This document shows, one piece after another, positions 54,650 to 62,235 of a stretch of 62,890 nt of DNA (its first letter is position 1; every line of letters starts with the position of its first letter). Position numbers and translations under genes: made by a program. This stretch comes from an uncultured Candidatus Saccharibacteria bacterium (lineage in GTDB: Bacteria > Patescibacteriota > Minisyncoccia > Sungbacterales > HO2-52-23), in the NCBI GenBank assembly GCA_964361695.1, contig CAYIBQ010000001.1:1-62890 (forward strand), written 5' to 3'. Under the pieces are notes generated by a model. It ran no database searches. It saw only the letters and a program-made list of their open reading frames with translations, and was not told the DNA's origin.

Positions 54650-55132
54650 CTACTGACGAAGAAAACGTACGGGGATGCGGCGCTCATCCGCGTGTTCGGG
54701 CAGGCCGGATGGATTGTCTTTTTGCAGGACAAGGATGCCTGTCTCCGTCGTGGATGTGGCAAAAGAAAGGTTCGCTTCAAACGGCACAAAGTCGGTGGTC
54801 ATCCATTCTTCCAGCGCTATCGCGGGCGTCACGCCCAGTTCCCTGCCTTCCTCATCCAGGACGCGTACCGGAAATGATGCTTCAAAAAACCAATTTCCAC
54901 GCGCTGTCCCTGCCACGCGCAGAGGGCTTGCAACGACCTCATCGGACAGGGGTGTTGCCACCCGGATCATCGGATCCTCTTCTTTTTCCGTTTCTTGCGG
55001 TGCCTCCACAACAGATGGCGGTTGCTCCGGCACGGGTTCCAATTTCGGTAGTGTCGGAAGCCCGATGAAACTTGCAAGAAACGCTACGACAAAGAGAATG
55101 AGGAAGACCGGAATTATTTTTCGGGATAGCAC
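54650..55132 (-). CDS. Membrane-anchored Gmad2-type immunoglobulin-like domain protein
   Basis: TM anchor, then SPLRVAGTARGNWFFEASFPVRVLDEEG...WMTTDFVPFEANLSF, the Gmad2 pattern. Confidence 0.65.
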   Translation of the reverse strand: MLSRKIIPVFLILFVVAFLASFIGLPTLPKLEPVPEQPPSVVEAPQETEKEEDPMIRVATPLSDEVVASPLRVAGTARGNWFFEASFPVRVLDEEGRELGVTPAIALEEWMTTDFVPFEANLSFATSTTETGILVLQKDNPSGLPEHADERRIPVRFLRQ

Positions 55133-56592
55133 TGCTTGCAGTAGTTATAGTTGTCTGATCCTACCGGACCGGCATATTCGCACTTTGGCGCCGCGGCAAA
55201 GAGAGAGCAATCAACCGCGGCCTTTGTCTGTATTTCCGTCTGGCGTTTGGTTTCGGCTTCGGTCTGCCTCCGTACTTCCTCGTCATACTGACGCTGTTGT
55301 TCTTCCTGCGTCCGCCGCTCCGTCTCCGATTGGTTGCCGACAGACCCGCCATCAGGCAGGCGCGGGGTCTGCTGTGGGGATGGGGTCGCATGATCCCCGC
55401 CACTCCCGGTCGCTTCGCGGATCTGGCGCGCAGTTTCTTCGGCAATACACGCGTTGAGTTTTTCCTGCACGTCTCCGGGTAACGCGCGCTCTCCGCCTTC
55501 TGCGTCTTTCTCTCCCCCACCACTTCTCGCGCCGACTCCCTGAAGACACGCAATCATCTCGCCGCATGATTTTTCTCCGCACGTCCGCAGTTCGGCATCC
55601 GCTTCCGCATTGCCTTTTGCCCGTCCCTCGCCTTCCATCCTTGCCCGCACTTCGGCCGCGACGCCGGAAAATTCTTCCGTCAGCCCATGCTGTTCGGCAA
55701 ATGCCATGCACTCCTGCTGATGCGCAGGATCCGTACAAAATTGCTCGCACATCTGTTTGCTCCTGCACCCGCCAGGGCCCACGCCTTTTGTCTTTCTCGC
55801 CAACGCGGCATCTTCTGCGGAAAGGATGCCTGCGCGCTCGCCAAACGATACACACGATTCCCTGCCTCTGCACTGCCCTGGGGTCTCGCCCCCACGGATG
55901 AGCGGCGCAAATTTCTTGGCTTCCGCTAACTCCTCACCACTCATGATCCCCGCTTTTTCAGCAAACGCAAGACATTCATCTATATGCGCCTGATCGGCGC
56001 AATATGTTTCGCACGCCGCTTTTCTGCCGCAGTTGCCCGGCGTTTTGATGCCACTTTCGATGAGAGGAATAATCTTCTCCGCGGCCATGGCCTCGTCCTC
56101 CGAACAATATGCTTCGCACGCGGCGCGCGTCCGGCACCCCCCGGGCAGAGTCGCACCCTGCGCCAAAAGCCCCGCGAGCTTGCGCCCTTCGGCTATTTCC
56201 TCTGCGGAGCGGAGCCCGTGTTTTTCGGCAAAATCAAGGCACTCGCCAAGGTGCTCCGTATCCTCGCAGTATTGCTCGCATGAGCGCGTATCGCGGCATC
56301 CGCCCGGACCCTCGGCAATACCAAGCCGCACGGCGTACCGCTCGGCTTCTTCCAACTGATCCGGTGGCAATAGGTTGTGCTTTTTTGCAAACCCGATGCA
56401 TGCGCGGACACGCTCTCCATTATCGCGCGCATTGCAATATGTCCGACACGCCGCCTCATCGCGACACCCGCCAAGCTCCGCCACTGGATGGACGATATCC
56501 GCTTTTGACGATGCGTATACCGCATACGCGGACGCAAAAGCAACCAATGCAACGGTAAAAAAGAGAAAAGATCGCTTGTGCCGGACGAACAT
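55114..56592 (-). CDS. Secreted cysteine-rich repeat protein
   Basis: Signal peptide, then about 6 copies of GGCR-x4-C-x2-YC-x6-10-C-x2-FAEKHGL-x-SxEE. The tail is E/R/Q-rich with terminal cysteines. Confidence 0.7.
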   Translation of the reverse strand: MFVRHKRSFLFFTVALVAFASAYAVYASSKADIVHPVAELGGCRDEAACRTYCNARDNGERVRACIGFAKKHNLLPPDQLEEAERYAVRLGIAEGPGGCRDTRSCEQYCEDTEHLGECLDFAEKHGLRSAEEIAEGRKLAGLLAQGATLPGGCRTRAACEAYCSEDEAMAAEKIIPLIESGIKTPGNCGRKAACETYCADQAHIDECLAFAEKAGIMSGEELAEAKKFAPLIRGGETPGQCRGRESCVSFGERAGILSAEDAALARKTKGVGPGGCRSKQMCEQFCTDPAHQQECMAFAEQHGLTEEFSGVAAEVRARMEGEGRAKGNAEADAELRTCGEKSCGEMIACLQGVGARSGGGEKDAEGGERALPGDVQEKLNACIAEETARQIREATGSGGDHATPSPQQTPRLPDGGSVGNQSETERRTQEEQQRQYDEEVRRQTEAETKRQTEIQTKAAVDCSLFAAAPKCEYAGPVGSDNYNYCKQCYPEK

Positions 56593-57872: not shown

Positions 57873-57949
57873 AAATGGCTTTGTTGAGCCAATGAGTCGG
57901 ATTCGCTTCTATGCAATCTTTGCATCTCAAGCCCTTAACAAAGCCATTT
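57873..57949 (+). other. Structured element in the CRISPR leader: 13-bp inverted repeat enclosing a 6-bp hairpin
   Basis: AAATGGCTTTGTT (57873..57885) pairs with AACAAAGCCATTT (57937..57949). Inner hairpin is ATGCAA-tct-TTGCAT (57911..57925). The element ends 5 nt before repeat 1. A further hairpin CTCGGT/ACCGAG lies at 57844..57865. Confidence 0.5.
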
Positions 57950-57954
57950 CCGCA

Positions 57955-58176
57955 GTTTAATACCTCTATAAGATTTCTACTTTTGTAGATTCGCCAATTA
58001 TCTCTAAAAAGCGGTAGTTTAATGCCTCTATAAAATTTCTACTTTTGTAGATACGCTATAAGGGTCGCGTGAACGGACGTTTAATACCTCTATAAGATTT
58101 CTACTTTTGTAGATGCAGCGAAATCAAGAATTTGATTTCTGTTTAATGTCTCTATAAGATTTCTATAAACCCAGTT
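57955..58176 (+). CRISPR. CRISPR mini-array with Cas12a-type repeats (3 intact 36-nt repeats, 1 degenerate terminal repeat, 3 spacers of 26 nt)
   Basis: Repeat 1 57955..57990 and repeat 3 58079..58114 are both GTTTAATACCTCTATAAGATTTCTACTTTTGTAGAT. Repeat 2 58017..58052 has 2 substitutions. Repeat 4 from 58141 matches for 25 nt with 2 substitutions, then diverges. Spacers are 57991..58016, 58053..58078 and 58115..58140. The repeat 3' end forms the TCTAC-TTTT-GTAGA hairpin of the Cas12a crRNA handle. Confidence 0.9.
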
Positions 58177-58252
58177 TATGGACAAAGGCTTTACTTTTGC
58201 CCTTTTTGGAGTATGGTTGAAGGGGTAAAGATAATTCGCCAAAAGAAAATTT

Positions 58253-61200
58253 ATGACTACTAAAATTACCGACTTGCGGGATTTTTATAAAGTACTGAAG
58301 ACAATTACTTTTGAATTGAGAGCTGTTGATCTAAACGATCAAGGCGTTCAATTTCAGAAGACCCTGGATTTTGTCAATCAAGAGTATTTTCCTGTTTCAA
58401 AAAAAAGTTCTGACGGCATAGACGAATTAAAAGAAATACTGCGGTTTGGCTCCGAGCTGGTTGGTCTTTCCGACCGTTTTACCGCCGGCTTGACCCAAAA
58501 ATCTTTTGACTGGTTTGGTTTTGATGCGCGTAAAACCTTGATAGAAAAATTTGATCGGGACAGATATCACTGGCTTAAGAAAAAAAGAAAAATCATCGTG
58601 CCGGTCAAAAACCCCGACACGGGCAGAGCATATCAAAAGCAGTTGATTTTTCAGGATCCGATGCCGCTGTATGCCGTGATTATGATGACGGACGGCACCG
58701 GCTATCAGTTGACTGATACCATAGGCAAGCTGACCGAGAGAATACAATCTTTTCAGAGCAAAATTAAAGGAGATTTATTAAAGATTTATTCCAAATACAC
58801 TGAAACGGAAAAAGTAATCTACTATGAAAGCGGGAAAGTTGTTTTCTACGGTTTTGTCCGTTCATATCTTTCGTTGATTAAAGACCTCATGGCGATTTTT
58901 GATTTGATTGCTGTAAGTCCGAGAGACATCAAGGAATCGCCGAAAAAAGAATGCACCCGAAAAATTCAGAAAGATTTAGAAGCCATAAAAAGTGCGTATC
59001 AAGACCATGCGACAACCATCACGAGTCTCAAAGATGTTATTGATGAAGAAGCCAAGAAACCAATCATTTGGACGACTCTGAACCCGCGGGCGGTAAATAA
59101 GGATCAAAAAAAGATTGAGAAAGAATATGCGTCCGTTTTGGAGATGGAAGAAAAAAAGAAAATGCTGGAATGGGATCTCGATGAGTTAAACAATAAGAAA
59201 TTTGCCGTAGTCCAAGCCTTGGAGAATAAATTAAAAGATTCTATTCCGGAGCTGGAAATTTTGAAGGAAGACATGCAACCGCTTATCAATGTGCTTTTCA
59301 ATAAAAAGAAATATAACTACTCCCCTCTCACCGACGAAGAGAAAGAGAATTTGCGGAAACATACATTTGCAAAAACGATCTTGAAATACATTAAAATTGA
59401 AGGAGTGGTTATAAGCGACAAACAGGACATTGAAAATTACAGACAACCGGGCGAAAGATTGGCGCGGAAAAGAGAAGAATACCGTCAAATAGAACAAGTA
59501 GAAGAATTTAACGCATTCAAAAAGGAATACCGCGATTACGGGGATTTTTGCAAAGAAAAAAAAAGGCAAAGCCATAGCACTTGGCAACCTCAAATCTATC
59601 TATAACGCCATCGGCCAGGAAGTTTTGAGGCAAAAAAAAATGCAGTACTTGAGCATTTTGGTTACGGACAAGGATTATTTTTATTTAGTCCTTATTGATA
59701 AAGATTACAATGAAGAGAAAGATATAGTGGGTGAGTTGCAGAAAAACAGCCAAAACAGCGAATGGCAGATGCTTGAATACCACAAGATCACCTTCAAGGC
59801 GATTGAAAAATTAGCGCTTTTGAATGCGGCGACTTTTGATATCGAAGACCGGCAATTGCAGGACGAGGCAAGGAATTTGTGGAGAAGTTACAAAGAAAAA
59901 TGGTTCAAGGAATATACAAACAATCGCGCTTTACAAGGACTTCATGGCTATCAAAAAGAAGCGAAGAGAGCAGAGCTTCAAAAAACAGAGCTAGTTAAAA
60001 TTATTGATTTTGTTCAAAGGGTGATCGCGAAATTGTCTGACTGCAAGAACTATAATTTTCATTTCAAAAGTCCCAATGAATATCAGACATTGGAAGAGTT
60101 TGCAGATGAAATTGACGCATGCGGCTACGCGAGTAAATGGGTTTCTCTAAACGAAGAAGCGCTTTTTGCAAAAGAAAAAGAACAAGGCGGCAATGTTTTG
60201 GTTTTCAAACTGCATAATAAAGATTTTAGAAAGAGTAAACAGTCGCTTTCGAACGAACGGGATGAAAGTGAAAGAAAGGAAAATTTGTTTACGCGATACT
60301 GGCGTGATGCAATGATGCTTGGGCGGGAAGTAAGAATAACGCCGGAAATTGACATTTTCAAGCGGAAAAAAGAAGAGAGCGGAAGCACGACCAGGACGCT
60401 TACAAACAAGGAAGTCGTGAACAAAGCAAGAAATTACCATGATAAACTTTACGGCGCTTTTGGGGTGGAGTTCTATCCTGCTAAAAAATCTGATTTTGAC
60501 ACCGTGAACAAAAGGGTCATGTTTGACGAGAGTGTGCATTATCTCGGTCTTGATCGTGGAGAAAACTCTCTTGTTTCATGGTGTTTGGTTGACTCAAAGG
60601 GTAAACTTATCAAAAACGGCGACTGGACAATTTTTATGGGTGTGAATTATGCCGAGAAATTAAATTTTACGAAAGATGAGCACGGCAAAAAAGAAGAGTC
60701 CGGTTTTCATAAAGCAAGGATCGTATTACTGGAAAAATATCAAAAAGTTTCAGATTGTAATAATGAAGAAGAGAAAAGAATACTCTTAGAAGAAGCGGAG
60801 AAGCAGGAAAAAGAGTTTGCCATAGATGGGCTTTTGGCGGCAGAGCAAATCAAGAAGGGCTACTGCGGTTATCTCATCAACGAGATCAATAAGATTTTGA
60901 AAGACTATCCGCATACCTATATAGTGCTGGAAGATTTGGATATAAAAGGAAAGGTTAAAGAAGATGAAGACATTACCAATAAAATTCAGAATTTGGAAAA
61001 AACGCTTGGTGGGACGATGTATCAGGCGGTGGAGAATGCCATCGTGAATAAATTTAAGTATTACACGGTGAAGGACAAAAGCGAGTATAAAGGACTGCAA
61101 CTTGTGCCGAATATTGTTAAGGTGGAAGATTTAAGAGTAAGCGCTACGCGAGAGAATGCTCAATCTGGTAAAGTAAACTGGGTGAAATCCAAAGAAAAAA

Positions 61201-61709
61201 TCGGTAACATTCTGTTCGTAGATGAGTGTTTGACTTCGCAAATGTGTCCGAAATGCGGATTCTGCATTTGTGGCGAGGCAAAAGCAGAAAGACTGCCGAA
61301 ATTTGCTTGCCCTCTGTTCCACGAAGACATAAAGGGCGCGTCTCTGGGTTTTAAGAATGAAGGTGGTCAAGACGTTTTGATGCTGAAAGCGAGAGACAAG
61401 ACATTTACAATACGCCATCTTCATGCAGTCAAGCAGACGGAGCTTGATAAAATAAAAAAACTTGAAAATACCAATAGCAAGATTCAAAGCCTCTTGGTCC
61501 TAAGGCTCAAAAGTGAAATGAAAAAAGGATTATATAATTGGGAATCCGTAAAAAAAGACCCGCTGTTTTGCTCGGCGTGCGGATTTAATACGGAAGAATC
61601 TGAAAAATTCGGGCTTCCCACCATTAAATCCGGCGATGACGCCGCCGCTTACAATATCGCCAAAATAGGTTTGGAAGTTTATCAAGCGATGACTCTCAAA
61701 AAACCATGA
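58253..61709 (+). CDS. cas12a: Compact Cas12a-family (Cpf1-like, type V) effector, ~1151 aa if read through. It is interrupted by a frameshift in an A9 run (59556..59564), which gives track ORFs 58253..59605 and 59625..61709.
   Basis: N-terminus YKVLKTITFELRAV (Cas12a LSKTLRFELKPV-like). WED-II-like YLSILVTDKDYFYLVLIDKDY. NYNFHFKSPNEYQTLEEFADEIDACGY...VLVFKLHNKDFRK...ENLFTRYW (Cas12a YQIYNKDF...LHT.YW block). RuvC-I YLGLDRGENSL, RuvC-II YIVLEDLD, RuvC-III SGDDAAAYNIAKIGL. Frame 0 stays open and Cas12a-like upstream of the TTG at 59625, back to the A9 run. Confidence 0.85.
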
Positions 61710-62235
61710 CCGAGGAAATCGCCAAAGTAGTCGCTGATGGAATATATTCCGTTATTGTACCATTCATTGTTGCCGTTATTGCAGCCGTTGTTGCCATTCA
61801 TACGGCAAAAAAAATACCAGAGATGAAATACGAAAAGTGCAGAGTGAATTCGCGCAAAAACTGTATGAAAAACGCCTCGAGCTGTATCCGCGGCTACTGA
61901 ACCTGACGCAAGATGTCGGGAAAGAAACGATGTGGAGGAAAGGCGTCGGGGAGGTGCAGTTGACCGGTGACGATACTTTTCAGATTGCACGGGAAGCGCT
62001 TGAAGGATTGATTGAACTGCATAAAGACACCGTGATTGAACTGGTGCTTTCTGACGGATCATTTAAGAGATTCGAGAATTTAAAAAAAGCGCTGCGCAGT
62101 AATCGGTCACAAGGGAAGAAATACGGGCGGGAGCAGATGGACAATTTTTGGAAACTTCGCGAGGAGTTGCGCGAGTGGTTGCGCAAAGACGTGGGTATTT
62201 ATCACGAGTCGGCGGAGAAACTTGAGTCCAAATAA
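61706..62235 (+). CDS. Cas12a-coupled small membrane protein (single TM helix plus helical cytoplasmic domain), ~176 aa if a frameshift in an A8 run (61807..61814) is corrected
   Basis: The ATG at 61706 overlaps the cas12a TGA (ATGA). Track ORF 61706..61900 gives MTEEIAKVVADGIYSVIVPFIVAVIAAVVAIHTAKK. The frame of ORF 61837..62235 is open upstream through the A8 run (..KKNTRDEIRKVQSEFAQKLYEKRLELYP..). Confidence 0.45.

What the first reader, a model, noticed from the sequence alone, without database searches (positions are those of the whole stretch)
61245..61580. Cysteine-rich CxxC...CxxC module retained in the Nuc region of the Cas12a-like protein
- Between RuvC-II and RuvC-III the protein reads TSQMCPKCGFCICGEAKAERLPKFACPLFHED...(about 90 aa)...DPLFCSACGFNTEE.
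- This gives two CxxC pairs plus extra Cys/His residues, which is the layout of the zinc-ribbon (target-nucleic-acid-binding) domain of TnpB and many non-A Cas12 subtypes.
- In characterised Cas12a proteins such as FnCas12a the equivalent TSKICPVTGF segment has lost most of these cysteines.
- A Cas12a-type repeat and WED architecture combined with an apparently intact zinc ribbon would be an evolutionary intermediate, or a distinct sub-branch.
Basis: partly seen in the sequence, partly recalled or inferred. Interest (0 to 1): 0.7.

Follow-up and report, generated by a model that had tools for sequence, protein, structure and literature searches.

The report
Zinc ribbon of a Cas12a4-type nuclease
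The cysteine pairs are real and conserved, but they are the zinc ribbon already described for the Cas12a2/a3/a4 relatives of Cas12a; this gene is a new, frameshifted member of the published Cas12a4 clade.

Summary
Window 61245-61580 (+) encodes CPKC...(104 aa)...CSAC between RuvC-II (E893) and RuvC-III (D1128) of a 1151-aa Cas12a-like protein. All four cysteines are invariant in 13 subclade relatives. The gene lies just downstream of a three-spacer array with a Cas12a-type repeat.

The protein is 43% identical over 99% of its length to ca73Cas12a4, a sequence in the supplement of the 2026 Nature paper that defined Cas12a3 and Cas12a4. My tree places it with Cas12a2/a3/a4 at 100% bootstrap. That literature already states that these clades carry a zinc ribbon where Cas12a has its Nuc domain, and cysteine mutants of Cas12a2 lose activity. 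At least 16 clusters of canonical Cas12a also keep both CxxC pairs, so the trait is not unique.

Three points are mildly new:
- The ca73-like sub-branch has not been tested experimentally.
- It has a short RuvC-I to RuvC-II linker (about 125 aa) and a zinc ribbon enlarged by about 100 aa. The insert carries an invariant arginine and has no fold match in the PDB.
- An A9 tract splits the gene, identically in five independent assemblies.

The parts
57955..58176 (+). CRISPR mini-array: three 36-nt Cas12a-type repeats (GTTTAATACCTCTATAAGATTTCTACTTTTGTAGAT) with three 26-nt spacers, followed by a degenerate fourth repeat that lacks the 3' stem-loop.
   Evidence: The period is 62 nt. The 3' end of the repeat folds into the UCUAC-UUUU-GUAGA hairpin. 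The spacers have no exact match in IMG/VR.
58253..61709 (+). cas12a4-like effector gene (ca73-like subclade). It is read as two ORFs (58253-59605 and 59625-61709) and gives 1151 aa once the frameshift is repaired.
   Evidence: AlphaFold2 model: pLDDT 82.2, pTM 0.73. The best Foldseek hits are Cas12a-like ReChb, Cas12a2 and Cas12a.
59556..59564 (+). A9 homopolymer tract where the reading frame breaks. Removing 1 nt (or adding 2 nt) restores the frame.
   Evidence: The tract is A9 in five independent assemblies from the same groundwater well.
60552..60554 (+). RuvC-I catalytic Asp (D767, in LGLDRGE).
   Evidence: This column is Asp in all 20 references shown.
60930..60932 (+). RuvC-II catalytic Glu (E893, in IVLEDLD).
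61245..61256 (+). Zinc-ribbon knuckle 1, C998-P-K-C1001 (in TSQMCPKCGF).
   Evidence: Invariant in the subclade. The same column is Cys in the Cas12a2/a3/a4 references and in Cys-bearing Cas12a.
61257..61568 (+). 104-aa insert between the two knuckles. It is predicted to form four beta-strands followed by several short helices.
   Evidence: Domain model: pLDDT 88.4, pTM 0.83. No Foldseek match in the PDB with E below 1. The layout resembles the CasX zinc-ribbon region.
61263..61322 (+). Additional Cys and His residues: C1004, C1006, C1019 and H1023.
   Evidence: C1004 is shared by part of the subclade. C1006 is shared with P0011, P0014 and P0038. C1019 and H1023 are unique to the window protein.
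61503..61505 (+). Invariant Arg R1084 (in LVLRLK), about 20 aa before knuckle 2.
   Evidence: Invariant in A3 and A4. In A3 and in the profile hit to FnCas12a it aligns with the Arg of the Cas12a Nuc motif LQMRNS. This alignment depends on which sequences are included.
61569..61580 (+). Zinc-ribbon knuckle 2, C1106-S-A-C1109 (in DPLFCSACGF).
61635..61637 (+). RuvC-III catalytic Asp (D1128, in SGDDAAAYNIA).

Best explanation
The segment encodes the two CxxC knuckles of a C4 zinc ribbon, with C998, C1001, C1106 and C1109 as the predicted ligands of one Zn2+. The ribbon sits between RuvC-II and RuvC-III of a type V effector belonging to the published Cas12a4 clade, in its ca73-like sub-branch.

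Shown here: the four cysteines are conserved; the segment belongs to the TNB / zinc-ribbon family; the three RuvC catalytic residues are intact; a Cas12a-type repeat array lies directly upstream; and the protein is placed in the Cas12a2/a3/a4 superclade.

[quoted passage not shown] Together they would help to load nucleic-acid substrates into RuvC, as reported for the zinc ribbons of Cas12a2 and Cas12a3 and for the TSL/Nuc domains of other Cas12 proteins.

By analogy with the tested relatives (ApCas12a4, Cas12a2, Cas12a3), the crRNA-guided enzyme probably recognises an RNA target with a flanking sequence and then cleaves bystander nucleic acid, which arrests growth. The target type and the collateral substrate of this sub-branch are untested.

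In this genome an A9 tract breaks the gene, and no cas1, cas2 or cas4 is present. The copy is therefore probably switched off or decaying, unless transcriptional slippage restores the frame in some transcripts.
For: Sequence and conservation.

Family of the module:
- PF07282 TNB matches 23 of 25 family segments. The window segment scores 21.7 bits, E 2.4e-4.
- The subclade-only profile hits the PlmCasX zinc-ribbon region across both knuckles, E 5.6e-4.
- The wider profile hits Cas12a Nuc regions, CasX, TnpB, SuCas12a2 and Ba1Cas12a3.

Clade:
- 43% identity over 99% of the length to P0003.
- P0003 is ca73Cas12a4 in Supplementary Data 1 and Table 1 of PMC12851939.
- The best BLAST references are ca73Cas12a4 (791 bits), then ApCas12a4 and ca57Cas12a4.
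- NJ tree: a2+a3+a4 superclade 100%, ca73-like subclade 100%, Cas12a4 as a whole 63%.

Catalytic residues D767, E893 and D1128 are conserved.

Structure: the full-length model has pLDDT 84-96 across the module, and the domain model has pLDDT 88.4.

Literature:
- Zinc ribbon retained in Cas12a3 and Cas12a4; ApCas12a4 is RNA-activated and cleaves only RNA.
- Cas12a2 has a zinc ribbon instead of a Nuc domain.
- Its Cys mutants lose activity.
- The zinc ribbon is assigned a nucleic-acid-loading role.

Relatives are working CRISPR loci: a 28-repeat array with cas1 and cas2 next to P0004, and cas4 or cas1 next to P0002, P0003 and P0005.
Against: - No coordinates were available, so convergence of the four Sγ atoms on a metal site was not measured.
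- The window segment alone is below the Pfam gathering score for PF07282 (21.7 against 26.3 bits).
- Support for joining the ca73-like subclade to the other Cas12a4 sequences is only 29-63% in my NJ tree. Identity to the one tested Cas12a4 (ApCas12a4) is 28%, and ApCas12a4 has a much shorter ribbon (29 against 111 aa) in which only one Cys of knuckle 2 aligns.
- The RuvC-I to RuvC-II spacing (126 aa) is closer to Cas12a (85-98 aa) than to the other a2/a3/a4 proteins (186-320 aa). Function may therefore not transfer from the tested relatives.
- The gene is frameshifted in all five assemblies, so the module may not be expressed at all.
Confidence: 0.8

Rival explanations
1. The ca73-like group is not simply Cas12a4. 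It is an architectural intermediate, or a separate fifth branch, between Cas12a and Cas12a2/a3/a4. It would keep a bridge-helix-like short linker and a reduced Nuc-like lobe built into an intact zinc ribbon, and could have its own target or collateral specificity.
For: - RuvC-I to RuvC-II spacing is 121-126 aa, against 85-98 aa in Cas12a and 186-320 aa in the other a2/a3/a4 proteins. The zinc-ribbon span is 83-111 aa, against 18-47 aa in the a2 and a3 references and 127-197 aa in Cys-bearing Cas12a.
- The subclade has 100% bootstrap, but its link to the other Cas12a4 sequences has only 29-63%.
- The full-length profile hits Cas12a, not Cas12a2 or Cas12a3, in the PDB sequence search.
- R1084 and D1102 align with the Cas12a Nuc motif R...D-x-I-x-SP in A3.
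- ca73Cas12a4 was never tested experimentally.
Against: - The authors' maximum-likelihood tree labels ca73 as Cas12a4.
- My tree gives 100% support for the a2/a3/a4 superclade including this group.
- The match to the Cas12a Nuc domain disappears when Cas12a sequences are left out of the profile.
- 'Intermediate' sizes could equally result from secondary loss or gain.
Confidence: 0.2
2. The protein is a canonical DNA-targeting Cas12a that happens to retain the ancestral cysteines, like KaCas12a.
For: - Sixteen Cas12a-type clusters keep both CxxC pairs.
- The repeat is Cas12a-type.
- The protein matches Pfam Cpf1_PI-like and RuvC_1.
- PDB sequence hits are to Cas12a.
Against: - TIGR04330 scores 63.5 bits against a cut-off of 300.
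- There is no Pfam REC1 or NUC match, whereas the neighbouring true Cas12a genes in related loci have them.
- The protein is 100-200 aa shorter than Cas12a.
- The tree separates it from Cas12a with 100% bootstrap.
- In three related loci it sits beside a canonical Cas12a, which argues for a non-redundant role.
Confidence: 0.05
3. The extra residues C1004, C1006, C1019 and H1023 form a second metal site, which would make this a binuclear module.
For: In the model C1004 and C1006 lie on one beta-strand (1003-1006), C1019 starts the next strand, and H1023 follows it. CPxCxFC(I/L)C recurs in P0010, P0011, P0012, P0014 and P0038.
Against: C1019 and H1023 are absent from the 79%-identical P0011 and from every other relative. 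C1004 is absent from P0002, ca73, P0006 and P0009. No distances could be measured.
Confidence: 0.07
4. The module is a non-functional relic, because the gene is a pseudogene in this organism.
For: - The A9 frameshift is present in all five assemblies.
- There are no adaptation genes and only three spacers.
- The locus is a low-GC island.
Against: Both ORFs are otherwise intact, with no further stops. All catalytic and Cys residues are preserved. A9 tracts are prone to slippage (my own knowledge), so some full-length product is possible. This rival concerns this particular copy, not what the module is.
Confidence: 0.4

Closest known systems
Cas12a4 clade, specifically ca73Cas12a4 (JGI Ga0209097_10004342), from Nature 2026, PMC12851939
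   Same: - 43% identity over 99% of the length.
- The same sub-branch in my tree (100% bootstrap).
- The same three RuvC motifs.
- The same CxxC...CxxC pattern with a long insert.
- The same invariant Arg.
- Cas12a-type repeats in the family.
   Different: - The window protein has extra Cys and His residues and a 14-aa longer start to the insert.
- Its gene is frameshifted.
- Its locus has no cas4, no adjacent Cas12a and only three spacers.
- ca73 itself was never tested. The tested ApCas12a4 is only 28% identical, has a 29-aa ribbon and a 186-aa RuvC-I to RuvC-II segment.
Cas12a2 (SuCas12a2, PDB 8D49/8D4A/8D4B)
   Same: - It uses Cas12a-type crRNA.
- It has a zinc ribbon where Cas12a has its Nuc domain, and cysteine mutants lose activity (PMC9811890, PMC9849127).
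- 8D4A is among the top full-length Foldseek hits (E 2.8e-26).
   Different: [quoted passage not shown]
- The window protein has a 111-aa zinc ribbon and a short linker.
- The aromatic clamp residues were not tested here.
- Sequence similarity is marginal (E 0.019, second knuckle only).
Cas12a3 (Ba1Cas12a3, PDB 9HLX)
   Same: The same superclade. A zinc ribbon next to RuvC that is said to cooperate in substrate loading.
   Different: Cas12a3 has an 18-30-aa zinc ribbon and a tRNA-loading domain inside a 225-320-aa insertion between RuvC-I and RuvC-II. The window protein has no such domain there. Profile similarity is E 0.33.
Cysteine-bearing canonical Cas12a (for example KaCas12a PIW96672.1; the Cas12a next to P0005)
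   Same: TSxTCPxCGF ... D-x-I-x-CPxCGF just before RuvC-III. The conserved Arg and Asp upstream of knuckle 2 are also present.
   Different: These proteins have a full Nuc domain (127-197 aa) between the knuckles, score as Cas12a, and carry REC1 and NUC Pfam domains.
CasX/Cas12e zinc-ribbon (TSL) region, PlmCasX PDB 7WAY residues 805-926
   Same: This is the best solved match to the subclade-only profile (E 5.6e-4). Both knuckles align, with an insert of similar length between them.
   Different: It belongs to a different Cas12 subtype, and the rest of the protein is unrelated. The predicted fold of the insert gave no Foldseek match to it.
TnpB / Cas12f TNB domain (Pfam PF07282)
   Same: A C4 zinc finger between RuvC-II and RuvC-III (PMC10691335). 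23 of 25 family segments match the model.
   Different: The window segment is below the gathering score. In TnpB and Cas12f the ribbon is compact, without a 100-aa insert.

Membership tests
Cas12a4 clade (PMC12851939) | Groups phylogenetically with the named Cas12a4 sequences, apart from Cas12a, Cas12a2 and Cas12a3. | tested here: met
   The best reference is ca73Cas12a4 (791 bits, 43%), followed by ApCas12a4 and ca57Cas12a4. In the NJ tree the subclade with ca73 has 100% support and the superclade 100%, but Cas12a4 as a whole only 63%.
Cas12a4 clade (PMC12851939) | Three RuvC motifs retained. | tested here: met
   D767, E893 and D1128 align with the catalytic residues of all the references.
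Cas12a4 clade (PMC12851939) | Zinc-ribbon cysteines retained. | tested here: met
   C998, C1001, C1106 and C1109 are invariant in A4 and at least 90% conserved in A3.
Cas12a4 clade (PMC12851939) | Cas12a-type repeat and conserved crRNA-processing region. | tested here: inconclusive
   The repeat ends in AAUUUCUACUUUUGUAGAU. R726 occupies a column that is Arg in all 20 references, within the KxR...K segment. The processing residues themselves were not mapped onto a structure.
Cas12a4 clade (PMC12851939) | [quoted passage not shown] | not testable with these tools
   This is a biochemical property, shown only for ApCas12a4. ca73 was not tested.
Cas12a4 clade (PMC12851939) | Limited conservation or absence of the Cas12a2 aromatic clamp residues. 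| not tested
   The SuCas12a2 sequence was not retrieved, so the clamp positions (Y465, Y1069, Y1080, F1092) were not mapped.
Cas12a2/a3/a4 superclade | [quoted passage not shown] | tested here: inconclusive
   The spacing is 126 aa. That is more than in Cas12a (85-98 aa) but far less than in the other a2/a3/a4 references (186-320 aa). The model shows two helices, 817-834 and 838-884.
Canonical Cas12a (NCBIfam TIGR04330 equivalog) | Whole-protein score at or above the curated cut-off of 300 bits. | tested here: not met
   63.5 bits.
Canonical Cas12a | Nuc domain (Pfam PF18510) and REC1 domain (PF18501). | tested here: not met
   Neither is found in the window protein. Both are found in the neighbouring Cas12a genes of related loci.
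TNB / OrfB-type zinc ribbon (Pfam PF07282) | Score at or above the gathering threshold (26.3 bits). | tested here: not met
   19.0 bits for the full protein and 21.7 bits for the segment. However, 23 of 25 family segments match at E up to 0.1, with a best E of 1.5e-6.
TNB / OrfB-type zinc ribbon (Pfam PF07282) | Two CxxC knuckles between RuvC-II and RuvC-III. | tested here: met
TNB / OrfB-type zinc ribbon (Pfam PF07282) | The four Cys converge on one tetrahedral metal site. | not testable with these tools
   The models are confident (pLDDT 84-96 in the full-length model and about 87-94 in the domain model at the knuckles), but the coordinates are not exposed.
Functional CRISPR-Cas locus | Intact effector ORF together with adaptation genes. 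| tested here: not met
   The A9 frameshift is present in five assemblies. No cas1, cas2 or cas4 lies in the 1.2 kb downstream or upstream. The contig ends at 62890.

The most novel reading that the evidence does not exclude
The ca73-like sub-branch comprises the window protein, P0002-P0005, P0007, P0010, P0012 and P0014. It may be functionally distinct from the tested Cas12a4. In this reading the roughly 85-110-aa insert inside the zinc ribbon, with its invariant Arg and a fold unmatched in the PDB, has taken over the substrate-selecting role that the large insertion domain (and the tRNA-loading domain) plays in Cas12a2 and Cas12a3. That would give a new target or collateral specificity. The frequent tandem arrangement with a canonical Cas12a, and a recurrent NYN-domain neighbour, would fit a distinct back-up defence role.
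Probability: 0.2. Interest if true: 0.6.

Novelty: new member of a known kind. Interest (0 to 1): 0.3.

Why it matters
A Cas12a-like nuclease with a zinc ribbon is established knowledge (Cas12a2 in 2023, Cas12a3 and Cas12a4 in 2026), so the finding mainly adds one more, damaged, orthologue from a groundwater Patescibacteria genome.

Its residual value is as a pointer to an untested sub-branch with a compact architecture of 1056-1199 aa among the nine full-length members. This sub-branch has a short RuvC linker and an enlarged zinc ribbon. It could matter for RNA-detection tools, and for understanding how the domains flanking RuvC set collateral substrate choice in this fast-evolving group.

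The census showing that about a fifth of the Cas12a-type clusters sampled still carry all four cysteines is also a useful correction to the idea that Cas12a has lost its zinc ribbon.

Tried and rejected
- **PDB sequence search.** Searching with the single protein or with the family profile found only Cas12a, at E 1e-9 to 1e-20, and no Cas12a2 or Cas12a3. It therefore could not assign the clade. The assignment came from the paper's supplementary FASTA.
- **Second word-index homologue search.** Repeating it with the alignment returned nothing new.
- **First tree script.** It timed out and I rewrote it with numpy.
- **Full-length Foldseek.** It cannot separate Cas12a from Cas12a2, because all hits have TM about 0.4.
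- **Domain-only Foldseek.** It gave no hit with E below 1. The fold of the insert stays unassigned, and the zinc site could not be confirmed through a structural neighbour.
- **Model coordinates.** They are not available to scripts, so I measured no Cys-Cys distances.
- **Homology of the insert to the Cas12a Nuc domain.** It appears when Cys-bearing Cas12a sequences are in the alignment. It does not appear with the subclade-only profile or in the full-length alignment. I keep it as a suggestion only.
- **Spacers.** They gave no exact match in IMG/VR.
- **Rfam.** It found nothing relevant around the locus.
- **Supplement search.** One search for the reference names did not locate their position in the FASTA.
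- **-1 ribosomal frameshift at the A-tract.** I rejected this because the downstream frame is +1 (equivalently -2) relative to the upstream one (and direct reading of the sequence).
Full report
**The observation.** Window 61245-61580 (+) translates to CPKCGFCICGEAKAERLPKFACPLFHED...DPLFCSAC. The gene appears as two ORFs, 58253-59605 (450 aa) and 59625-61709 (694 aa). The frames overlap at an A9 run, 59556-59564. Removing one A joins them into a 1151-aa protein whose junction reads ...DFCKEKKGKAIALGNLKSIYNAIGQEVLRQKKMQYLSILVTDKDYFYLVLIDK, a typical Cas12a WED-II segment. In this numbering the pairs are C998/C1001 and C1106/C1109, which map exactly to the first and last codons of the finding. 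They lie between RuvC-II E893 and RuvC-III D1128. RuvC-I D767 is also present.

Directly upstream (57955-58176) are three 36-nt repeats ending in AATTTCTACTTTTGTAGAT, three 26-nt spacers and a degenerate fourth repeat. The locus has 38-41% GC in a contig of about 54% GC.

**Is it more than chance?** Yes. In 13 sequences of the same sub-branch, which are 27-58% identical to the window protein across this segment, the invariant residues include C998, C1001, C1106, C1109, S995, R1084, D1102 and D1128 (A4). In a 25-sequence alignment that adds other Cas12a4-like, one Cas12a2-like and five Cas12a segments, the four Cys are at least 90% conserved (A3).

C1004 is present in part of the sub-branch, and C1006 in four sequences. 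C1019 and H1023 occur only here, and a 79%-identical fragment (P0011) has V and E instead.

**What the protein is.**
- Pfam finds RuvC_1 and Cpf1_PI-like, plus a weak Cas12f1-like_TNB match at 978-1020.
- The Cas12a equivalog TIGR04330 scores 63.5 bits against a cut-off of 300.
- Only five clusters in the 5.8-billion-protein collection are close relatives. An exhaustive profile search adds a handful more before running into other Cas12a4-like proteins and then canonical Cas12a.
- One relative, P0003 (43% identity, 99% coverage), is identical over every stretch I compared to ca73Cas12a4. [quoted passage not shown] Its Supplementary Table 1 lists it as JGI Ga0209097_10004342.

I transcribed 14 named reference sequences from that supplement; their lengths match the table. 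Against these plus P0003, the window protein's best hits are ca73Cas12a4 (791 bits), ApCas12a4 (150 bits, 28% over 714 aa) and ca57Cas12a4. A neighbour-joining tree (42 taxa, 824 columns, 100 bootstraps) gave these supports:

| Grouping | Bootstrap |
|---|---|
| Cas12a2 + a3 + a4 superclade, including the window protein | 100% |
| ca73-like sub-branch (window, P0002-5, P0007, P0010, P0012, P0014) | 100% |
| Cas12a4 as a whole | 63% |

**What is already known.**
[quoted passage not shown] - Mutating its conserved cysteines abolished collateral cleavage (PMC9811890).
- A 2026 NAR paper describes the CXXC/CXXXC zinc ribbon of Cas12a3 and assigns it, as in Cas12a2/f/e/m/g, a nucleic-acid-loading role (PMC13594972).
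- A C4 zinc finger between RuvC-II and RuvC-III is the common state in TnpB and in some Cas12 proteins (PMC10691335).

I examined the full-length proteins among the top 150 profile hits, together with the named references. Of the 82 whose best reference is a canonical Cas12a, 16 have both knuckles (TSxTCPxC ... CPxC) spaced 127-197 aa apart. In other words, a Nuc domain is inserted into an intact ribbon. KaCas12a, which the Nature paper treats as Cas12a, is one of them. The Cas12a encoded next to homologue P0005 is another. The sample is biased toward proteins that resemble the query, so 20% is not a population estimate. It does show that many canonical Cas12a lineages keep the four cysteines.

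**The module itself.** The zinc ribbon here spans 111 aa from first to last Cys. The table compares it with the named references and close relatives; all values are in aa (Cys-bearing Cas12a span).

| Group | Zinc-ribbon span | RuvC-I Asp to RuvC-II Glu |
|---|---|---|
| Window protein | 111 | 126 |
| ca73-like sub-branch | 83-111 in the long-insert members shown (P0002 about 22) | 121-126 |
| ApCas12a4 | 29 | 186 |
| Other Cas12a4 references | 24-93 | 186-255 |
| Cas12a3 references | 18-30 | 225-320 |
| Cas12a2 references | 33-47 | 211-236 |
| P0038 (Cas12a2-like) | 102 | 282 |
| Cys-bearing Cas12a | 127-197 | 85-98 (KaCas12a, P0061) |
| Canonical Cas12a without the Cys pairs (AbCas12a, MpCas12a, LbCas12a) | none | 85-93 |

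Architecturally, the sub-branch sits between Cas12a and the rest of the superclade.

AlphaFold2 with a 53-sequence alignment gives a confident full-length model (pLDDT 82.2, pTM 0.73), with block means of 84-96 at both knuckles and 73-78 for residues 1071-1100 of the insert. A model of residues 980-1151 alone gives pLDDT 88.4 and pTM 0.83. It shows a strand right after knuckle 1, a small sheet, several short helices, and short strands flanking knuckle 2.

Full-length Foldseek hits are ReChb, Cas12a2 (8D4A) and many Cas12a structures. All have E about 1e-26 and TM about 0.4, which does not discriminate between them. The isolated module has no PDB match with E below 1.

By sequence, a profile of the sub-branch alone best matches the PlmCasX zinc-ribbon region across both knuckles (E 5.6e-4). 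The wider profile matches Cas12a Nuc regions (E about 1e-8), CasX, TnpB, SuCas12a2 (E 0.019) and Ba1Cas12a3 (E 0.33). PF07282 matches 23 of the 25 segments.

In A3 the invariant R1084 and D1102 align with the Arg of the Cas12a LQ(M/I)RNS motif and with the Asp of D-x-I-x-SP. From my own knowledge, that Arg is the Nuc-domain arginine whose mutation makes Cas12a a nickase. The correspondence is lost in other alignments, so I treat it only as a lead.

**Genomic context and state of the gene.** The split 450-aa and 689-aa products, and an A9 tract, are found in five independent assemblies from Hainich groundwater well H51 (different filter fractions and replicates). Their coding sequence is otherwise identical. 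The frameshift is therefore a property of the population, not a single assembly error. Restoring the frame needs -1 or +2 nt, which fits homopolymer phase variation or transcriptional slippage but not a -1 ribosomal frameshift.

No cas1, cas2 or cas4 lies nearby, and the contig ends 1.2 kb downstream. The relatives are in working-looking loci:
- P0002 and ca73 lie immediately downstream of a canonical Cas12a and upstream of cas4.
- P0005 lies next to a Cys-bearing Cas12a, with cas1 nearby.
- P0004 is a lone effector with a 28-repeat Cas12a-type array, cas1 and cas2.

The tandem arrangement with Cas12a mirrors what was described for Cas12a2. It suggests a complementary role, probably RNA-triggered. 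This is an inference.

**Verdict.** The cysteines are real, conserved and best explained as the C4 zinc ribbon of the TNB/Nuc-equivalent module of a Cas12a4-clade effector. The kind is known, and this is a new but disabled member. What stays open is whether the untested ca73-like sub-branch, with its short linker and enlarged arginine-bearing zinc ribbon, behaves like ApCas12a4 or has its own specificity.

Noticed in passing
window 59556-59564: An A9 homopolymer breaks the cas12a4-like gene into 450-aa and 689/694-aa ORFs. The same A9 is present in five independent assemblies of the same groundwater site. Restoring the frame needs -1 or +2 nt, so the tract could be a phase-variable or slippage-dependent switch, or the gene could be a recent pseudogene.
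   Followed up: partly
window 57900-61750: The CRISPR-effector locus is a low-GC island (0.38-0.41) in a contig of about 0.54 GC, which suggests horizontal acquisition. There are no adaptation genes, and the contig ends at 62890.
   Followed up: partly
L011 138-7304; L008/L009 2086-9378; L006 3275-10481 and L007 42-7308: In three of the four full-length homologues with known context, the ca73-like gene is directly adjacent to a canonical Cas12a gene (1298-1325 aa, with Pfam REC1 and/or NUC). cas4 or cas1 is nearby. This resembles the Cas12a + Cas12a2 pairs described in the literature.
   Followed up: partly
L006 6612-10481 and L007 3379-7308: The canonical Cas12a next to homologue P0005 itself keeps all four zinc-ribbon cysteines (YTSATCPSCGF ... 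IRCPSCGFD ... DADANGAYNIA).
   Followed up: yes
L010 5467-5973; L006 2367-3038: A NYN-domain (predicted RNase) gene lies immediately beside the effector in two related loci (Pfam E 5.5e-16 and 3.3e-15). It may be a recurrent accessory gene.
   Followed up: partly
L010 28-1763: Homologue P0004 has a 28-repeat array with a Cas12a-type repeat (reverse complement ...AATTTCTACTTTCGTAGAT) and 25-28-nt spacers, plus cas1 and cas2. It is the only effector on its 7.9-kb contig, so a ca73-like protein may be able to act as the sole effector of an active system.
   Followed up: partly
protein P0038 (1424 aa), from the representative search: This protein groups with the Cas12a2 references over most of its length. 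Its zinc ribbon plus insert, however, is very like the window's (CPACGFCLCGE...LLVTRLKN...DPVFCSACGFNTED). This suggests that the enlarged zinc-ribbon module is shared or exchanged between clades.
   Followed up: no
window 55114-56592 (-): A 492-aa ORF contains about six repeats of a cysteine-rich motif (GGCR..x..C..YC....H..EC..FA.KHG). It has no significant Pfam match and is unrelated to the CRISPR locus.
   Followed up: partly
window 57991-58140: None of the three 26-nt spacers has an exact match in the IMG/VR viral contigs.
   Followed up: yes
window 61257-61568 (residues 1002-1105): The roughly 100-aa insert between the zinc knuckles is confidently modelled (pLDDT about 88 for the domain model as a whole), but it has no Foldseek match in the PDB with E below 1.
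   Followed up: partly
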